Of a DNA stretch of 64,000 bases, positions 6,255 to 57,361 are shown in pieces. A program made the position numbers and the translations under genes. Below the pieces are notes generated by a model. It was not told the origin of the DNA and made no database searches. It saw nothing but the letters and a program-made list of their open reading frames with translations. Position 1 is the stretch's first letter; each line of letters starts with the position of its first letter. Origin of the DNA: a phage; the sequence record PZ583743.1. One strand, 5' to 3'.

Positions 6255-6284
6255 ATAGTATCACACTACTACCCTTCTGTAAAC
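6255..6284 (-). promoter_or_regulatory. T4-type early promoter (GTTTAC, 18 nt, TACTAT)
   Basis: Minus-strand -35 at 6279..6284 and -10 at 6255..6260; precedes ORF 5987..6229. Confidence 0.55.
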
Positions 6285-6979: not shown

Positions 6980-7009
6980 ATAGTACCACAGTATGCTTTG
7001 GTTGTAAAC
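6980..7009 (-). promoter_or_regulatory. T4-type early promoter in cassette A
   Basis: -35 GTTTAC at 7004..7009, 18-nt spacer, -10 TACTAT at 6980..6985; directly downstream of the gene 32 terminator. Confidence 0.6.
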
Positions 7010-23295: not shown

Positions 23296-23325
23296 ATAGT
23301 ACCACAGTATGCTTTGGTTGTAAAC
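23296..23325 (-). promoter_or_regulatory. T4-type early promoter for motA (cassette B)
   Basis: -35 GTTTAC at 23320..23325, 18 nt, -10 TACTAT; near-identical to cassette A. Confidence 0.6.
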
Positions 23326-26564: not shown

Positions 26565-26651
26565 TCATAATAACCTCATCACAAAAGTAAATGTTAAACA
26601 AATTAATGGAATACTAATTAACCAAACGAAACACCACCATAATGAACTCAT
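26565..26651 (-). CDS. Tiny hydrophobic peptide (28 aa)
   Basis: MSSLWWCFVWLISIPLICLTFTFVMRLL; coupled to neighbours. Confidence 0.3.
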   Translation of the reverse strand: MSSLWWCFVWLISIPLICLTFTFVMRLL

Positions 26652-48545: not shown

Positions 48546-48575
48546 ATAGTATCTCAATTTCCAATAAAAGTAAAC
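48546..48575 (-). promoter_or_regulatory. T4-type early promoter for sp
   Basis: -35 GTTTAC at 48570..48575, 18 nt, -10 TACTAT. Confidence 0.55.
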
Positions 48576-52110: not shown

Positions 52111-52959
52111 TTAATCAACTGCTATTGGATGAATAGCATTAAACTTATGAAATGCTTCTGATTTTTCTTTACGCGAAACACACATGCGAAGAACCTTTAA
52201 TGGCTCGTCTTCTTCACCCAACGATTTTCGTTTTTCAATATTCGATGTTTTCCAACGAGCTTGCTCTGGAAACTCTCTATTGATTTGCTCAAGCGCTCTA
52301 TTATGTTTAGAATTACTACGAATTGAACTACATCCACCGGGAGCGTGTGATTTTCCAGATACAACTAGATATTTGAACAAGGCCAAATGCGGATAACCTT
52401 GATTAATTAAATTGAGAAATGCATACATATCTTCGCATAAATCAATTTTTCCATACCCAATTTGTTCTGTCGTAAGTTTTCCGAGGTCATACCATGTATT
52501 CGTGAATCCATATGAGTTTTCACGATAATTACCCCAAGATGAAGTAATTTTAAAAATTGGTAGACGAGCATGACCGTGATAATACCCGCAATCCATGGCA
52601 TCTTCAACATATTGAATCAATTCATAGAACTGTTCACGAGTTAATTGATTAATTTTATCTACACGCCGTTTATCGTCTCTCTTTCGTATTGAACTCATAC
52701 GAATAGTAGTATCATCATCAATCATCCAGATTCGTTGACCTGCATACATATCAGTAATTGCTTTACGAGTACCAGCAATTCCATTAACATCATCAGGAAT
52801 AGTTATAATTTTAGCTCTAGACCCATAAGCGTCATAATAAGCTTTTTCTTCGTGTTTACGTACTACAATATGAGGTTCATAATCAGTTGGAAACATATCA
52901 AGGGCAGAAACTGCCCCTACGCGTTGATAACTTGGAATTACGAATTGAATCATTTCCAC
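52111..52959 (-). CDS. GT-A fold glycosyltransferase at the T4 beta-gt locus
   Basis: 282 aa; FVIPSYQR and IWMIDDDTT (DxD) motifs; between uvsX and 42 where T4 has the 351-aa GT-B beta-gt. Confidence 0.6.
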   Translation of the reverse strand: MEMIQFVIPSYQRVGAVSALDMFPTDYEPHIVVRKHEEKAYYDAYGSRAKIITIPDDVNGIAGTRKAITDMYAGQRIWMIDDDTTIRMSSIRKRDDKRRVDKINQLTREQFYELIQYVEDAMDCGYYHGHARLPIFKITSSWGNYRENSYGFTNTWYDLGKLTTEQIGYGKIDLCEDMYAFLNLINQGYPHLALFKYLVVSGKSHAPGGCSSIRSNSKHNRALEQINREFPEQARWKTSNIEKRKSLGEEDEPLKVLRMCVSRKEKSEAFHKFNAIHPIAVD

Positions 52960-53697: not shown

Positions 53698-53847
53698 TCA
53701 ATTGATGCATTCATATTTAATTTGTAACAGTAATAAACCCCAACCTAAAATAATAGTTGGAATCATAAGAGGAACCGTTACACTATAGTATATACTTATT
53801 ATAATCATCAAGATTAAAAGCAACACTGCTATAATTTTGCTTTTCAT
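53698..53847 (-). CDS. Tiny membrane protein (49 aa)
   Basis: ATGA overlap with imm stop; MKSKIIAVLLLILMIIISIYY... Confidence 0.4.
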   Translation of the reverse strand: MKSKIIAVLLLILMIIISIYYSVTVPLMIPTIILGWGLLLLQIKYECIN

Positions 53848-54095
53848 TCCTTCTCTCTGATGATAATTACTTGATTTGGCTGTGCAGACTTTTTAGTTTC
53901 ACCAGCAATTGACCAAATAAATGTAATAAACCAACCAATGATTGACCAGTTAAACAGTAAAGATGTAAAAAAGATTCCTACTGTCGATTTTGACCCACGC
54001 ATCAAGGCAATGAACCAAGGAAGCATGTATATAATAATAGCCAACACACCTGAAACTAAAACCATAAAAATTGAACCTGCTACTAAAGTTTCCAT
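53844..54095 (-). CDS. imm: Immunity (superinfection exclusion) membrane protein Imm
   Basis: 83 aa, same length as T4 Imm; two TM helices; between 43 and 42. Confidence 0.75.
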   Translation of the reverse strand: METLVAGSIFMVLVSGVLAIIIYMLPWFIALMRGSKSTVGIFFTSLLFNWSIIGWFITFIWSIAGETKKSAQPNQVIIIREKE

Positions 54096-54102
54096 GTTTT
54101 CC

Positions 54103-54483
54103 TCACTTAGTCAAATTTTTTACACATGAATTATAAGAATTTACTACATACTCCATCGGAGCATTTTTACCAGTACGCCATTGATAATTATTAGCCCAAT
54201 TTGCCCAAAGTTCAGCGCAGTAGTTTTCAATTTTTTCTTCGCGTGTAATTACATCCGAATTACGATATGCTTGAGCAGATTCATCTGGACGAATAGCCTC
54301 GTCAAAATTCGCCTGCATTTGTTCTACTGTCTGTTTTGGAGCTTCTTTATAACACTTGACATTAGGATTATAAAATTTGCTTGAACAGTTTACAATTTTT
54401 CCTACATCAGACTGATTTACTACCGGTCCTTGAGCTACACAGCCAGTAAGACCCAATGCAATAACCAAAATAGCGATTTTCAT
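54103..54483 (-). CDS. Putative lipoprotein (126 aa)
   Basis: ORF track 54103..54672; promoter 54518..54547 and leader tttggagaATG place start at 54483; signal peptide with lipobox LTGC. Confidence 0.55.
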   Translation of the reverse strand: MKIAILVIALGLTGCVAQGPVVNQSDVGKIVNCSSKFYNPNVKCYKEAPKQTVEQMQANFDEAIRPDESAQAYRNSDVITREEKIENYCAELWANWANNYQWRTGKNAPMEYVVNSYNSCVKNLTK

Positions 54484-54517
54484 TTCATTCTCCAAATCCG
54501 CATCAGTTGATAGTTGT

Positions 54518-54547
54518 ATAGTACCATAGAAGAACAGTCTTGTAAAC
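54518..54547 (-). promoter_or_regulatory. T4-type early promoter (cassette D) for lipoprotein ORF
   Basis: -35 GTTTAC at 54542..54547, 18 nt, -10 TACTAT; leader matches cassette C. Confidence 0.6.
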
Positions 54548-54630
54548 AGTTTTGTGAAAAAATTTTTAATGAATTCCAGGGGTCCAGAAACATCTGTTTT
54601 TCCTAAGTATAGATTTATATTACTTGTATG

Positions 54631-54651
54631 AAAAAGGGACCCGGAGGTCCC
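54631..54651 (-). terminator. Rho-independent terminator after gene 43
   Basis: Hairpin gggacc-cgga-ggtccc at 54636..54651 followed on the minus strand by UUUUU. Confidence 0.7.
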
Positions 54652-54664
54652 TAGATTTATTCTA

Positions 54665-57361
54665 TCAGCCAAACAGGAAGTCTAACGAGGCTTTTTCTTC
54701 ATAGTCCATACCCGCTGACTCACACATACCCGCAAGCGGTTTAACAAACGATTTTTGGAACAAAGTTGAGTAATCAATCCAAGACAGTACATCAGAACGA
54801 ATTTCTTTTGGAAGTTCCGTACCCGATGGCCAAGCAATGCACTTGTCACCAAATGGATTTCCCTCACGTAATGGAAGAACCATTACTTTATTTCCATCCA
54901 AAATTGGAGCTACACCTAAACCGCTAACAGCTCGACGATAAGTTAGCACCCCACGAATGTGGAACGGGCATTTAAATCCTGGCCAACCTTTATCGTCATA
55001 TTTCGCTATATCGTTCGCAGTTTTTACTTCAGCAATAACTTTATAGTCAAGTTGACGATATTCTTTCTCAAAGTTCTTATAGTATTCTTGGACAGACTCT
55101 TCACCTTCCTGAAGAATGCGACGAATACTTTCTTCGAGAGCTTCTTGTACTGCTTTTGGTGTTGAACTCTGCTGAGTTTCCATACCCATGATTTTTAGAT
55201 GTGGTTCAGCAAATCGTTTATCTTCCATATCATAAACGTTCAGAGCATAACGTTTTTTCGCTTTCCAAAATCCACCAACACCCTTTGAACCAAGCGGAGG
55301 ACAAGAAATAGCTTCACGGTCCATATGCATCAGATGCTCGCGGTTATTCATATAATCACATAACTCACGATATGCAACATCAATCATAGGTTCCATCTTT
55401 TTCTTACCGAACTGATTCATGAATTCAACTAAATCATTTTGTTCTTTAAAGCGGTCAAGACCTACTTTTTCAATAACTTTATCTACACAAACATATACAG
55501 AATCAGTATCACCCGCTGCGATGAAATCTTCGCCATTAGTTCCACACACCTTATTCAAGTATTCATTAATTTTACGAGCAATCCACTGAATACCAACTTG
55601 ACCAAAAATTGTGATAGCAGTAGCATTTCGCAAATCATAATAACGGAAATGAATATTACCAAGAGCACCATAAAGACTGTTGATAAGAATTTTACGGTTT
55701 AGCTGATTTGTGTTAGCAAGAGTAGCTGCTTTTTCACATTCTTCAATCAAACTATTAAGAACAGATTCGGTGTAATTCGATAATTCATTTAAGAAATCAT
55801 CATTGAACTTAACATATCGTTCAACTTCTGGTTTAGTTGAACAAGACCCTGCACCTTTCATAATAATCTTTTTAATAGCTTCGGCATTCATTTCTTCAGC
55901 GAACATTTTCTTTTTCCAATCTTTACGCTGGAAAAATACTTTAGCGATTTCCTTTGGAATGATACCTTCTTGATGCTTATCATACATCCATCCATTCGGA
56001 GAACAAGAATATTCATCGCTTGGCTTAGGAGCTGTTCCTGCGATATATTCATGAATTGGATGAACTTTGAACTGTCCACGAATAGTTTCAGGACTAATGT
56101 TAACCTGACGAATAATGCTCGGATACAGAGACGTCAAGTCAAAACTCATAATGTATCGACGGGCAATCGGTTTAGGTTCAAACACAAATGCACCTGGAAA
56201 ACTCTGTTTAACGTGCGAACCTTGTTGAGGAATAACCTTATGTTCACCTTTCAATGAGTTAAAAATAATAGCATCCCAAGTTTTAATAGGACTCATTACA
56301 CCAGAAAAAGGCATTTTAGCGTAATAAGACATACTTAAAACTAGATCGATAAACCCGCGAATTTTATCAATTGCTTGAACTGATTCTACGTCAATAATGT
56401 TATAACTAATGTATCGTTGATGATTAGTCTCACGAAGTTTATTAATAGGACCATCATATGGTAATTTACCTTTTTTGGTTTCATGTTGAGCAACTGATTC
56501 CAAAGAGAATGATGGCAAATTAGTAAATGCGAATTTCTTGTACAAATCTAAATAATCAAGAATAGATACGCCATCAATAGAATAAATTTCTTTGCTACCG
56601 TACATATTTTGAATTAGTTTAGATTTTACTCGACCGATTGGAGAGAAGCGTTTCATACTACGTTCGCCGAGAACCATTTTAACACGATTCATGATATACG
56701 GAACGTCAAATCCCTCAATATTCCAACCGGTAAAAATAGCAGGTCGTTTCTGTTCCCAGAGATTAATATATTCCATGAGCATATCACGCTCATTATCAAA
56801 TGGCATATAAATTACTCGGTCAAGAATTTCTTGAGGAACTTCATCACCACCTTCACAGTCAAGTTTAGCAGCTAACTTTGCATCCCATTTTGATACTGAA
56901 CCGTACATTGAATTCAACAAATCAAAGACGTAAAAACGGTCGTCAATTGAATCATAATGAGTGATAGCATCAATTTCATATTCTGCTTTCATTGGGTCAG
57001 GAAATTTATCACCAGTAACCTCAATGTCACAGTTAGCTACACGAACAAATTTTCGGTCATAAACAATTTCTGAACCATACGTATCACTGATATAAGCGAG
57101 TTTAAAATCGTTCATACCGAGAGCTTCGAGACCGATGTCTTCCATTCGCTTCATCCAATCTCGTGCATCTTTCATTGATGGAAATTTTTGAGGAGCGCAG
57201 TTTTTACCGTAAATGTCTTTGTATTTTGATTCTTCCTTACAATGCCTAAACATAGTCGGAAGATATTCTACTTCGCGAGTACGTTCCTTTCCATTTTCAT
57301 CAATATAACGTTCAACAATATTATTTCCGACTGTTTCGATAGAGATATAAAATTCTTTCAT
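54665..57361 (-). CDS. 43: DNA polymerase gp43 (family B)
   Basis: 898 aa, same length as T4 gp43; exonuclease FDIE and polymerase DTDS motifs. Confidence 0.95.
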   Translation of the reverse strand: MKEFYISIETVGNNIVERYIDENGKERTREVEYLPTMFRHCKEESKYKDIYGKNCAPQKFPSMKDARDWMKRMEDIGLEALGMNDFKLAYISDTYGSEIVYDRKFVRVANCDIEVTGDKFPDPMKAEYEIDAITHYDSIDDRFYVFDLLNSMYGSVSKWDAKLAAKLDCEGGDEVPQEILDRVIYMPFDNERDMLMEYINLWEQKRPAIFTGWNIEGFDVPYIMNRVKMVLGERSMKRFSPIGRVKSKLIQNMYGSKEIYSIDGVSILDYLDLYKKFAFTNLPSFSLESVAQHETKKGKLPYDGPINKLRETNHQRYISYNIIDVESVQAIDKIRGFIDLVLSMSYYAKMPFSGVMSPIKTWDAIIFNSLKGEHKVIPQQGSHVKQSFPGAFVFEPKPIARRYIMSFDLTSLYPSIIRQVNISPETIRGQFKVHPIHEYIAGTAPKPSDEYSCSPNGWMYDKHQEGIIPKEIAKVFFQRKDWKKKMFAEEMNAEAIKKIIMKGAGSCSTKPEVERYVKFNDDFLNELSNYTESVLNSLIEECEKAATLANTNQLNRKILINSLYGALGNIHFRYYDLRNATAITIFGQVGIQWIARKINEYLNKVCGTNGEDFIAAGDTDSVYVCVDKVIEKVGLDRFKEQNDLVEFMNQFGKKKMEPMIDVAYRELCDYMNNREHLMHMDREAISCPPLGSKGVGGFWKAKKRYALNVYDMEDKRFAEPHLKIMGMETQQSSTPKAVQEALEESIRRILQEGEESVQEYYKNFEKEYRQLDYKVIAEVKTANDIAKYDDKGWPGFKCPFHIRGVLTYRRAVSGLGVAPILDGNKVMVLPLREGNPFGDKCIAWPSGTELPKEIRSDVLSWIDYSTLFQKSFVKPLAGMCESAGMDYEEKASLDFLFG

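What the first reader, a model, noticed from the sequence alone, without database searches (positions are those of the whole stretch)
54103..54483. Early-expressed lipoprotein between imm and gene 43
A 126-aa protein with a textbook lipoprotein signal (MKIAILVIALGLTGC) is driven by its own early promoter and ends 8 nt from imm. Phage lipoproteins made early are classically superinfection-exclusion or receptor-masking factors; with imm next door this could be a second exclusion function. The ORF track merges it into a 189-aa frame, so it is easy to miss.
Basis: partly seen in the sequence, partly recalled or inferred. Interest (0 to 1): 0.45.

Follow-up and report, generated by a model that had tools for sequence, protein, structure and literature searches.

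The report
T4 gene imm.1, an early lipoprotein
The flagged ORF is real, but it is the long-annotated, still uncharacterised T-even phage gene imm.1: an early, dispensable, probably outer-membrane lipoprotein that sits next to the superinfection-immunity gene imm in every T4-like phage examined, which makes it a testable candidate partner of imm.

Summary
The ORF at 54103-54483 (minus strand, 126 aa) is real. It is the ortholog of phage T4 gene imm.1 (124/125 identical; Pfam DUF5481, phrog_1754) and the window is a Tequatrovirus.

- **Confirmed:** the lipoprotein signal (K2, hydrophobic core, lipobox LTGC), a GGAG ribosome-binding site and a T4-type early promoter. The 189-aa TTG frame is a mechanical artefact.
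- **Published T4 data:** imm.1 is early at RNA and protein level, and dispensable.
- **Added here:** remote homologs in eight T4-like genera form one family. In all 21 distinct gene neighbourhoods examined the gene sits beside imm, although the pair has moved, flipped order and diverged to about 20% identity. The lipobox Cys is kept in 22 of 23 sequences. dN/dS is 0-0.12.
- **Against receptor masking:** T2, T4 and T6 use different receptors, yet their Imm.1 proteins differ by at most 3 residues.
- **No further lead:** no fold or sequence relative outside the family was found.

The best reading is an outer-membrane-anchored periplasmic accessory of Imm-type superinfection immunity. This is inferred, not shown. 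Imm alone excludes T4 from a plasmid. The gene is already known and its function is open. Interest is modest.

The parts
54635..54652 (-). Intrinsic terminator after gene 43 (AGGGACC-TCCG-GGTCCCT followed by a T run). It separates the gene-43 transcript from the imm.1 unit.
   Evidence: Terminator scan; conserved in T4 and T6.
54518..54547 (-). T4-type early promoter: GTTTACA (-35), 17-nt spacer, TGG-TACTAT (extended -10), with an A/T-rich tract upstream.
   Evidence: 14 matches in the window against 0.16 expected, all on the minus strand. Conserved in T4 and T6. The same motif lies upstream of Mosigvirus imm.1.
54490..54493 (-). Shine-Dalgarno GGAG, six bases before the ATG of imm.1.
   Evidence: Sequence read directly; invariant in T4 and T6.
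54103..54483 (-). imm.1 coding sequence: 126 aa plus a TGA stop. Ortholog of T4 imm.1 (DUF5481, phrog_1754).
   Evidence: dN/dS is 0-0.12.
54439..54483 (-). Signal peptide with lipobox (M1-G14, then the lipid-acceptor Cys15). Residue +2 is Val, not Asp.
   Evidence: Sequence. The Cys is conserved in 22 of 23 family members.
53844..54095 (-). imm, the superinfection immunity protein (83 aa, PF14373). It starts 7 nt after the imm.1 stop, and its GAGG ribosome-binding site overlaps that stop codon.
53698..53847 (-). 49-aa single-pass membrane ORF (phrog_3610). T4T annotates a 42.1 at this position, and the homolog in L022 is PF26865 Phage_T4_Y02C. Its start overlaps the imm stop (ATGA). It is possibly a third member of the cassette.
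   Evidence: Intact but unannotated in T4 NC_000866.4.

Best explanation
The ORF is the T-even phage gene imm.1.

How it is made. It is transcribed within the first minutes of infection from a sigma-70 early promoter, as the first gene of a tightly packed imm.1-imm-49-aa-ORF unit. The precursor is exported. It is then lipidated on Cys15 and cleaved by signal peptidase II. Because residue +2 is Val rather than Asp, the Lol system should deliver it to the inner leaflet of the outer membrane.

The mature protein. It is about 112 aa. It has a conserved but probably extended N-terminal tether (C-x-x-QG-x-VV-x-x-S-D/E-VGK, then a YNP motif). This is followed by a helical domain whose last two helices are pinned by the invariant pair C89/C120. 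C33/C44 form a second, co-occurring Cys pair.

Most likely role. It is an accessory, outer-membrane-anchored periplasmic arm of the Imm superinfection-immunity module. It would act on the tail tip or DNA conduit of a superinfecting T-even phage as it crosses the periplasm, or it would position or stabilise Imm. In this it would complement Imm, which sits in the inner membrane and binds the tape-measure protein, and Spackle, which sits in the periplasm and inhibits the gp5 lysozyme.

Status of each step. Shown: gene identity, early promoter, early RNA and protein in T4, dispensability, purifying selection, and conserved linkage with imm. Inferred: lipidation, outer-membrane location, disulfides, and the exclusion role itself.
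For: - Identity: 124/125 identical to T4 Imm.1; DUF5481 at 5e-72; phrog_1754.
- Expression: early-promoter class motif. T4 imm.1 is listed as 'early-RNA_early-Protein', in the same class as sp (PMC9697503 supplement).
- Dispensability, as for imm: 31/31 TA sites carry insertions and the gene is called non-essential (HIDEN-SEQ supplement). CRISPRi-ART scores it 'Not Fit'.
- Real protein under selection: dN/dS 0-0.12, like imm and gene 42.
- One family: lipoproteins from Tequatro-, Mosig-, Gelderland-, Jiaoda-, Dhaka-, Gapriver- and Muldoonvirus and from metagenomic lineages all match phrog_1754 over its full length (E 1e-15 to 1e-52).
- Linkage: the gene is adjacent to imm in all 21 distinct neighbourhoods examined (23 locus records; two pairs repeat the same gene order). 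In Mosigvirus the pair has moved next to sp. In Dhaka- and Gaprivervirus the order is inverted. In PS2, L018 and L020 the two reading frames overlap by 4 nt.
- Counts in the phage collection: Imm in 1002 records; Imm.1-type lipoproteins in 657 + 132 + 148 records. The three sets may overlap, so the total is at most 937.
- Envelope targeting: lipobox kept in 22 of 23 sequences; no Asp at +2 in any; C89 and C120 invariant or nearly so.
Against: - No experiment links Imm.1 to exclusion. None was found in the searchable literature.
- Imm alone, expressed from a plasmid, excludes T4 and binds the tape-measure protein. Imm.1 is therefore not required for the core mechanism.
- A non-T4-like phage, Obolenskvirus LZ35, carries imm with no neighbouring lipoprotein gene.
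- Part of the synteny could simply be inherited gene order among T4-like phages.
- An outer-membrane lipoprotein of about 112 aa may not reach the inner membrane, so direct contact with Imm is uncertain.
- The structure model is confident only for residues 81-125, and no informative structural neighbour was found.
- Lipidation and localisation rest on sequence rules only.
Confidence: 0.45

Rival explanations
1. Receptor-masking lipoprotein of the T5 Llp / T1 Cor kind. It would bind the periplasmic face of the phage's outer-membrane receptor and allosterically close the phage-binding site, blocking adsorption of further phages.
For: - It is an early, small lipoprotein with intramolecular Cys pairs and is predicted to face the periplasm from the outer membrane, as Llp does (PMC9586334).
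- One distant family member (PS2 gp047) has a marginal N-terminal match to the Cor PHROG (E 8e-4, signal-peptide region only).
Against: - Imm.1 differs by at most 3 residues among T2, T4 and T6. By established knowledge these phages use FadL/OmpF, OmpC plus LPS, and Tsx respectively, so a receptor-specific binder should vary with the receptor.
- llp lies next to its receptor-binding-protein gene, whereas imm.1 lies next to imm and the DNA polymerase gene.
- The window protein has no Pfam, PHROG, PDB-sequence or fold similarity to Llp or Cor.
- By established knowledge, superinfecting T-even phages still adsorb to infected cells; lysis inhibition depends on that.
Confidence: 0.08
2. An envelope-maintenance or lysis-timing factor that is not itself an exclusion factor. 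Possible roles include helping to reseal or stabilise the envelope after the phage's own penetration, resisting lysis from without, or taking part in lysis-inhibition signalling in the periplasm.
For: - Early expression, periplasmic or outer-membrane location and dispensability in the laboratory fit such conditional functions.
- In Mosigvirus it is a neighbour of sp. By established knowledge, sp is the gene for resistance to lysis from without.
- The linkage with imm is compatible with a shared envelope-after-infection theme rather than a shared target.
Against: - No similarity to holins, antiholins, spanins or Spackle was found.
- The very tight coupling specifically to imm, with 4-nt overlaps and co-relocation, points to the Imm function rather than to lysis genes, which map elsewhere in T4.
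Confidence: 0.2
3. A counter-defence or host-takeover factor that binds a host periplasmic or outer-membrane protein. The target could be a host or prophage envelope-level defence, a periplasmic nuclease or a protease. On this reading the gene is unrelated to Imm except by position.
For: - Many dispensable T4 early genes are anti-defence factors, which is the theme of the HIDEN-SEQ preprint.
- The protein is nearly invariant within a genus (at least 95% identity) but only about 33% identical between genera. That would fit adaptation to a host-side or genus-specific partner.
Against: - The main texts of the two genome-wide T4 screens consulted do not mention imm.1. The one conditional comparison seen gave log2FC 0.06, not significant.
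- There is no PADLOC or other match that suggests a target.
- This reading does not explain why the gene travels with imm.
Confidence: 0.12
4. A chance or decaying ORF with no function.
For: It is dispensable in laboratory screens.
Against: - dN/dS is 0-0.12.
- The protein is at least 95% identical in 502 phage records.
- The protein is detected early in infection.
- The family is conserved across genera, with invariant Cys residues and a conserved lipobox.
Confidence: 0.01

Closest known systems
Phage T4 Imm.1 (gene imm.1, NP_049661, UniProt P18057; Pfam PF17578 DUF5481; phrog_1754)
   Same: It is 124/125 identical. It has the same position between genes 43 and imm, and the same promoter, ribosome-binding site and terminator. 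This is the same gene.
   Different: There is one extra C-terminal residue, and the lipobox is LTGC instead of LAGC. The gap to imm is 7 nt instead of 11 nt, so T4's alternative 94-aa Imm start is out of frame here.
T5 Llp and T1/phi80 Cor superinfection-exclusion lipoproteins
   Same: They are small phage lipoproteins with an intramolecular disulfide, anchored in the outer membrane and facing the periplasm (PMC9586334).
   Different: There is no sequence or fold similarity. Imm.1 is predicted to be helical and is about twice the size of Llp (61 aa modelled). llp is linked to its receptor-binding-protein gene, whereas imm.1 is linked to imm. Imm.1 is invariant across phages with different receptors.
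T4 Spackle (Sp, gp61.3)
   Same: It is an early, small, exported protein acting in the periplasm of the infected cell (PMC7677548 abstract). It is in the same early-RNA/early-protein class. In Mosigvirus it is encoded directly beside imm.1-imm.
   Different: Spackle is a periplasmic protein that inhibits the gp5 lysozyme. Imm.1 has a lipobox, and no Spackle chain appeared in the PDB sequence or fold searches.
T4 Imm (PF14373 Imm_superinfect)
   Same: It is the immediate downstream neighbour. In the window it shares the same promoter and is possibly translationally coupled. It is also non-essential.
   Different: Imm is a small membrane protein that binds the tape-measure protein. Imm.1 has no membrane-spanning segment beyond its signal peptide and no homology to Imm.

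Membership tests
T4 Imm.1 / DUF5481 (PF17578) / phrog_1754 | Profile match above the curated threshold over the whole domain | tested here: met
   PF17578 scores 239 bits against a cut-off of 27, covering profile positions 1-103 of 103. phrog_1754 matches at 5e-44 over positions 2-148 of 148.
T4 Imm.1 / DUF5481 (PF17578) / phrog_1754 | Orthologous position and near-identity to T4 imm.1 | tested here: met
   124/125 identical. The gene order 43 - imm.1 - imm - 42 is the same as in T4, T2 and T6.
Bacterial lipoprotein precursor (signal peptidase II substrate) | Positively charged N-terminal region, hydrophobic core, lipobox [LVI][ASTVI][GAS]C with the Cys at about residue 15-35 | tested here: met
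   The N-terminus reads M-K-IAILVIALG-L-T-G-C15. The rule itself is quoted from established knowledge (the PROSITE PS51257-type pattern). The Pfam LPAM_1 match is only weak, E 0.44.
Bacterial lipoprotein precursor (signal peptidase II substrate) | Lipid-acceptor Cys conserved in homologs | tested here: met
   22 of 23 family sequences keep it. The one exception, P0005, has a signal-peptidase-I-like AHA/S site, and its sister P0039 has LTGC.
Bacterial lipoprotein precursor (signal peptidase II substrate) | Actual diacylglyceryl modification and globomycin-sensitive cleavage | not testable with these tools
   This needs palmitate labelling, globomycin treatment or mass spectrometry.
Outer-membrane (Lol-sorted) lipoprotein | No Asp at position +2 after the lipidated Cys | tested here: met
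   The +2 residue is Val here and A, G, S or Q in the homologs; it is never Asp. Localisation itself was not tested.
Llp/Cor receptor-masking exclusion lipoproteins | Sequence or fold similarity to Llp or Cor | tested here: not met
Llp/Cor receptor-masking exclusion lipoproteins | Specificity tied to the phage's own receptor (gene next to the receptor-binding-protein gene; sequence varies with receptor) | tested here: not met
   The gene is next to imm and the DNA polymerase gene. The T2, T4 and T6 proteins differ by at most 3 residues.
Llp/Cor receptor-masking exclusion lipoproteins | Expression blocks adsorption or infection | not testable with these tools
   This needs plating and adsorption assays.
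T4 early gene class | T4 early promoter (GTTTAC -35, TAnnAT -10) directly upstream, and early RNA and protein | tested here: met
   The motif lies at 54518-54547 and is one of 14 in the window against 0.16 expected. The T4 ortholog is early at both RNA and protein level (literature).
Imm-type superinfection immunity module (as a partner, not a homolog) | Conserved physical linkage with imm across divergent lineages | tested here: met
   Adjacent in all 21 distinct neighbourhoods examined, covering eight genera plus metagenomic lineages, and including relocation and inversion.
Imm-type superinfection immunity module (as a partner, not a homolog) | Contribution to exclusion of superinfecting phage | not testable with these tools
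   No published phenotype was found. This needs genetics.

The most novel reading that the evidence does not exclude
Imm.1 is a third, so far unrecognised arm of T-even superinfection exclusion. On this reading it is an outer-membrane-anchored periplasmic protein that forms an envelope-spanning barrier to incoming genomes, together with inner-membrane Imm and perhaps the 49-aa membrane peptide encoded just downstream. The module would be conserved as a unit across T4-like phages of enterobacteria.
Probability: 0.35. Interest if true: 0.6.

Novelty: already known. Interest (0 to 1): 0.33.

Why it matters
T4 superinfection exclusion is a textbook phenomenon that is currently explained by two proteins, Imm and Spackle. 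How Imm works was only reported in a 2026 preprint.

A conserved lipoprotein gene fused into the same operon as imm in most T4-like coliphages has no assigned function. In RefSeq it even carries the spurious name 'iduronate sulfatase'.

If it contributes to exclusion, it would complete the picture of how an infected cell closes each envelope layer to rivals. That would matter for phage-cocktail design and for understanding lysis-inhibition signalling. If it does not, it remains one more dispensable early gene.

The practical gain here is a sharply defined hypothesis that is cheap to test, and a corrected annotation.

Tried and rejected
- **First word-indexed protein searches.** They returned only 3 proteins each.
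- **Exhaustive HMMER search.** It found only 6 clusters among 1.84 billion representatives. DUF5481 in the strict sense is therefore tiny. The wider family was reached only through neighbourhood inspection and PHROGs.
- **Other libraries.** NCBIfam and PADLOC gave only noise.
- **Profile-profile comparison of DUF5481 with the other genera.** It was significant only over the N-terminal motif: 97% probability with the signal peptide, and 79% (E 1.7e-5) over 27 columns without it. The full-length PHROG matches settled the homology.
- **Literature.** Searching 'imm.1' mostly returns immunology journal abbreviations. Lu and Henning 1989 and Miller et al. 2003 could not be read. No functional study of Imm.1 was found.
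- **Not attempted.**
  - A fused Imm.1-Imm co-folding run. The tool returns no interface metrics and accepts only window or database sequences.
  - The remaining conditional HIDEN-SEQ tables, because of their cost in look-ups.
- **Rejected readings.** The 189-aa TTG frame is an artefact. Receptor masking of the Llp/Cor kind is disfavoured. A relationship to Spackle or Imm is not supported. The name 'iduronate sulfatase' is spurious.

Full report
**What is there**

The window is a T-even phage (Tequatrovirus). The 1.2-kb region around the finding matches 517 phage records at about 90-97% nucleotide identity. The gene order on the minus strand is uvsX, a glucosyltransferase, gene 42, a 49-aa ORF, imm, the flagged ORF, and gene 43.

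The mechanical ORF list does merge it into a 189-aa TTG-initiated frame, 54103-54672. That frame runs back through a promoter, the gene-43 terminator and the last codons of gene 43, so it is an artefact. The ATG at 54483 has GGAG six bases upstream. It is the start used in T4, T2 and T6 and in every homolog.

**Identity**

The protein is 124/125 identical to T4 Imm.1, NP_049661. It matches Pfam DUF5481 at 5e-72 and PHROG family phrog_1754, 'unknown function', at 5e-44. The exact sequence is already on record from 521 contigs. [quoted passage not shown] The gene is therefore not new and was not missed. Its function is unknown.

**Signals around the gene**

- A hairpin terminator follows gene 43 at 54652-54635.
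- At 54547-54518 lies GTTTACA-N17-TGG-TACTAT. The T4 early-promoter pattern GTTTAC-N17-19-TAYWAT occurs 14 times in the window, all on the minus strand, against 0.16 expected from shuffles. This is a bona fide member of the phage's early-promoter class.
- Promoter, A/T-rich upstream tract, ribosome-binding site and terminator are conserved in T4 and T6.
- The stop codon of imm.1 is followed after 7 nt by the ATG of imm, and imm's GAGG overlaps that stop codon. The 49-aa ORF overlaps the imm stop (ATGA), and gene 42 follows 7 nt later. The promoter therefore serves a polycistronic unit, not imm.1 alone.
- One sigma-70-like match lies inside imm.1 (54395-54367). It is within what shuffles produce (8 found against 5.8 expected).

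**Published data on the T4 ortholog**

- In a time-resolved transcriptome and proteome study, imm.1 is listed as 'early-RNA_early-Protein', the same class as sp (PMC9697503 supplementary files 4 and 6). The protein is therefore made, and made early.
- In transposon sequencing of T4, all 31 TA sites in imm.1 carried insertions and the gene is called non-essential, as is imm (bioRxiv 10.1101/2025.11.20.689424 supplementary file 7).
- In a dCas13d knock-down screen it is 'Not Fit', and its function is listed as unknown (PMC11879866 supplementary files 8 and 15).
- A 2026 preprint shows that Imm binds the tape-measure protein gp29 and that plasmid-borne Imm alone excludes T4. It does not mention imm.1 (bioRxiv 10.64898/2026.03.06.709160).
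- No functional study of Imm.1 was found.

**Is it a lipoprotein?**

The N-terminus has a Lys, a hydrophobic core and the lipobox LTGC (LAGC in T4), with Cys at residue 15. Across the family the Cys is present in 22 of 23 sequences. The single exception, P0005 from one short contig, has a deletion that creates a signal-peptidase-I-like AHA/S site. Its sister sequence P0039 has a normal LTGC. Export to the periplasm is thus invariant, and lipid anchoring nearly so.

The residue after the Cys is never Asp. By the E. coli sorting rule this predicts delivery to the outer membrane. Lipidation and localisation remain inferences.

**Selection**

Among the window, T4, T2, T6 and EC128, imm.1 shows 5-11 synonymous but only 0-3 non-synonymous differences per pair. 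That gives dN/dS of 0-0.12, comparable with imm and the essential gene 42.

**Family and neighbourhood**

DUF5481 in the strict sense is tiny. An exhaustive HMMER scan of 1.84 billion representatives found six clusters. In the phage collection the window protein finds 502 records at 95% identity or more (Tequatrovirus) and 155 at about 33% (Mosigvirus), with nothing in between.

Inspecting what lies next to imm in other genera revealed lipoproteins of 145-168 aa with the same architecture:
- a lipobox;
- a post-Cys motif C-x-x-Q-G-x-V-V-x-A-x-E-V-G-K;
- a conserved Tyr;
- a helical C-terminal part with two Cys.

These were found in Salmonella phage S16, Klebsiella phages Boboto and Shark_ER15, Serratia phage PS2, Dhakavirus IME08 and UGJNEcP3, and Gaprivervirus SP18. 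Pfam does not recognise them. All of them, together with the window protein, match phrog_1754 over its whole length at E 1e-15 to 1e-52. A profile search with the merged alignment found further lineages.

In every one of the 21 distinct neighbourhoods examined the gene is directly beside imm (23 locus records; L005/L006 and L018/L019 each repeat the same gene order):
- upstream of imm in Tequatro-, Mosig-, Gelderland-, Jiaoda- and Muldoonvirus and in several metagenomic contigs;
- downstream of imm in Dhaka- and Gaprivervirus and in three metagenomic lineages.

Three observations argue that this is more than inherited gene order:
- In Mosigvirus the pair has moved away from genes 43 and 42 to sit between 61.4 and sp, the other exclusion gene.
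- In one metagenomic lineage the pair follows a frd.3-like gene.
- In PS2, L018 and L020 the two reading frames overlap by 4 nt.

In the phage collection Imm is found in 1002 records and the three lipoprotein subtypes in 657 + 132 + 148 records. The three sets may overlap, so the total is at most 937. A non-T4-like phage with imm, Obolenskvirus LZ35, has no such neighbour.

**Structure**

AlphaFold2 with 6 and then 22 sequences gave the same picture:
- residues 1-39 at low confidence (signal peptide plus a probably extended tether);
- two short helices (53-64 and 68-75) at moderate confidence;
- a confident helical hairpin (81-104 and 110-125).

C89 and C120 lie on the two helices of the hairpin. 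They are invariant in the 10-sequence alignment and invariant or nearly so in the 22-sequence alignment, which suggests a disulfide. C33 and C44 occur together or not at all.

**What it most likely does**

The shown facts are:
- early synthesis;
- export with a lipoprotein signal;
- strong purifying selection;
- dispensability in the laboratory;
- persistent, often translationally coupled linkage with imm.

These are best explained if Imm.1 is an accessory component of the Imm superinfection-immunity function, placed at the periplasmic face of the outer membrane. There it would meet the tail tip and DNA conduit of a superinfecting phage before that conduit reaches Imm in the inner membrane.

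I put this at about 0.45. No phenotype exists, Imm alone works from a plasmid, and imm occurs without the lipoprotein outside T4-like phages.

**Alternatives**

T2, T4 and T6 use different receptors (established knowledge), yet their Imm.1 proteins differ by at most 3 residues. The gene is linked to imm, not to a receptor-binding-protein gene. There is no similarity to Llp or Cor.
- A role in envelope maintenance or lysis timing is possible, at about 0.2.
- A role against a host envelope protein is possible, at about 0.12.
- A non-functional ORF is excluded.

**Verdict**

The gene is already known as T4 imm.1. Interest is modest, because the gene is a well-annotated orphan and the exclusion role rests on linkage alone.

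Noticed in passing
window 53698-53847 (-): A 49-aa single-pass membrane ORF whose start overlaps the imm stop codon (ATGA). It matches phrog_3610, and T4T annotates a 42.1 at this position. It is intact in T4 (46/49 identical) but not annotated in NC_000866.4 or in T6 MH550421. Homologs follow imm in SP18 and L004, and in L022 the corresponding ORF carries Pfam PF26865 Phage_T4_Y02C. It may be a third member of the imm cassette.
   Followed up: partly
window 54096-54135 (-); L001 4374-4658: T4 has an in-frame upstream ATG that gives a 94-aa Imm overlapping the end of imm.1. That form was used for cryo-EM in the 2026 preprint. In this window the upstream ATG is out of frame and meets TAA after six codons, so only the 83-aa Imm is conserved.
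   Followed up: yes
L002 2393-2629; L016 145-500 (relative to window ~54484-54634): Some close relatives carry one or two extra small ORFs between gene 43 and imm.1 (78 aa in EC128; 35 and 83 aa in T2). This shows up as a roughly 250-bp insertion in the megablast hits. The insertion is absent from the window, T4 and T6.
   Followed up: no
L001 4637-5014 (T4 NC_000866.4 imm.1) and cluster members: RefSeq/PGAP names this 125-126-aa lipoprotein 'iduronate sulfatase'. The name has spread to E. coli and Salmonella records and is spurious. Other records call it 'immunity protein' merely because of its neighbour.
   Followed up: yes
L003 2380-3260 (Mosigvirus JS09): In RB69-like phages imm.1 and imm lie between 61.4 and sp. 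Each of imm.1, imm and sp is preceded by its own GTTTACA...TA(C/T)(T/A)(A/G)T early-promoter motif, which forms a compact 'exclusion island'.
   Followed up: partly
window 52111-52959 (-): The glucosyltransferase next to gene 42 is the T2/T6-type beta-glucosyl-HMC-alpha-glucosyltransferase (282-aa GTG frame), not T4's beta-gt. The homing endonuclease gene segA, present in T4 between uvsX and beta-gt, is absent here.
   Followed up: no
window, whole (14 sites, e.g. 6255-6284, 23296-23325, 48546-48575): All 14 matches to the T4 early-promoter pattern lie on the minus strand. Two of them (6980-7009 and 23296-23325) are identical 30-mers.
   Followed up: no
PMC11879866 supplementary file 15 (T4 coordinates 26607-26637): In the dCas13d screen, guides at the imm start score as 'Fit' (1.40, p 0.02) although imm is non-essential by transposon sequencing. 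This may be a polar effect on the essential gene 42 downstream in the same unit.
   Followed up: no
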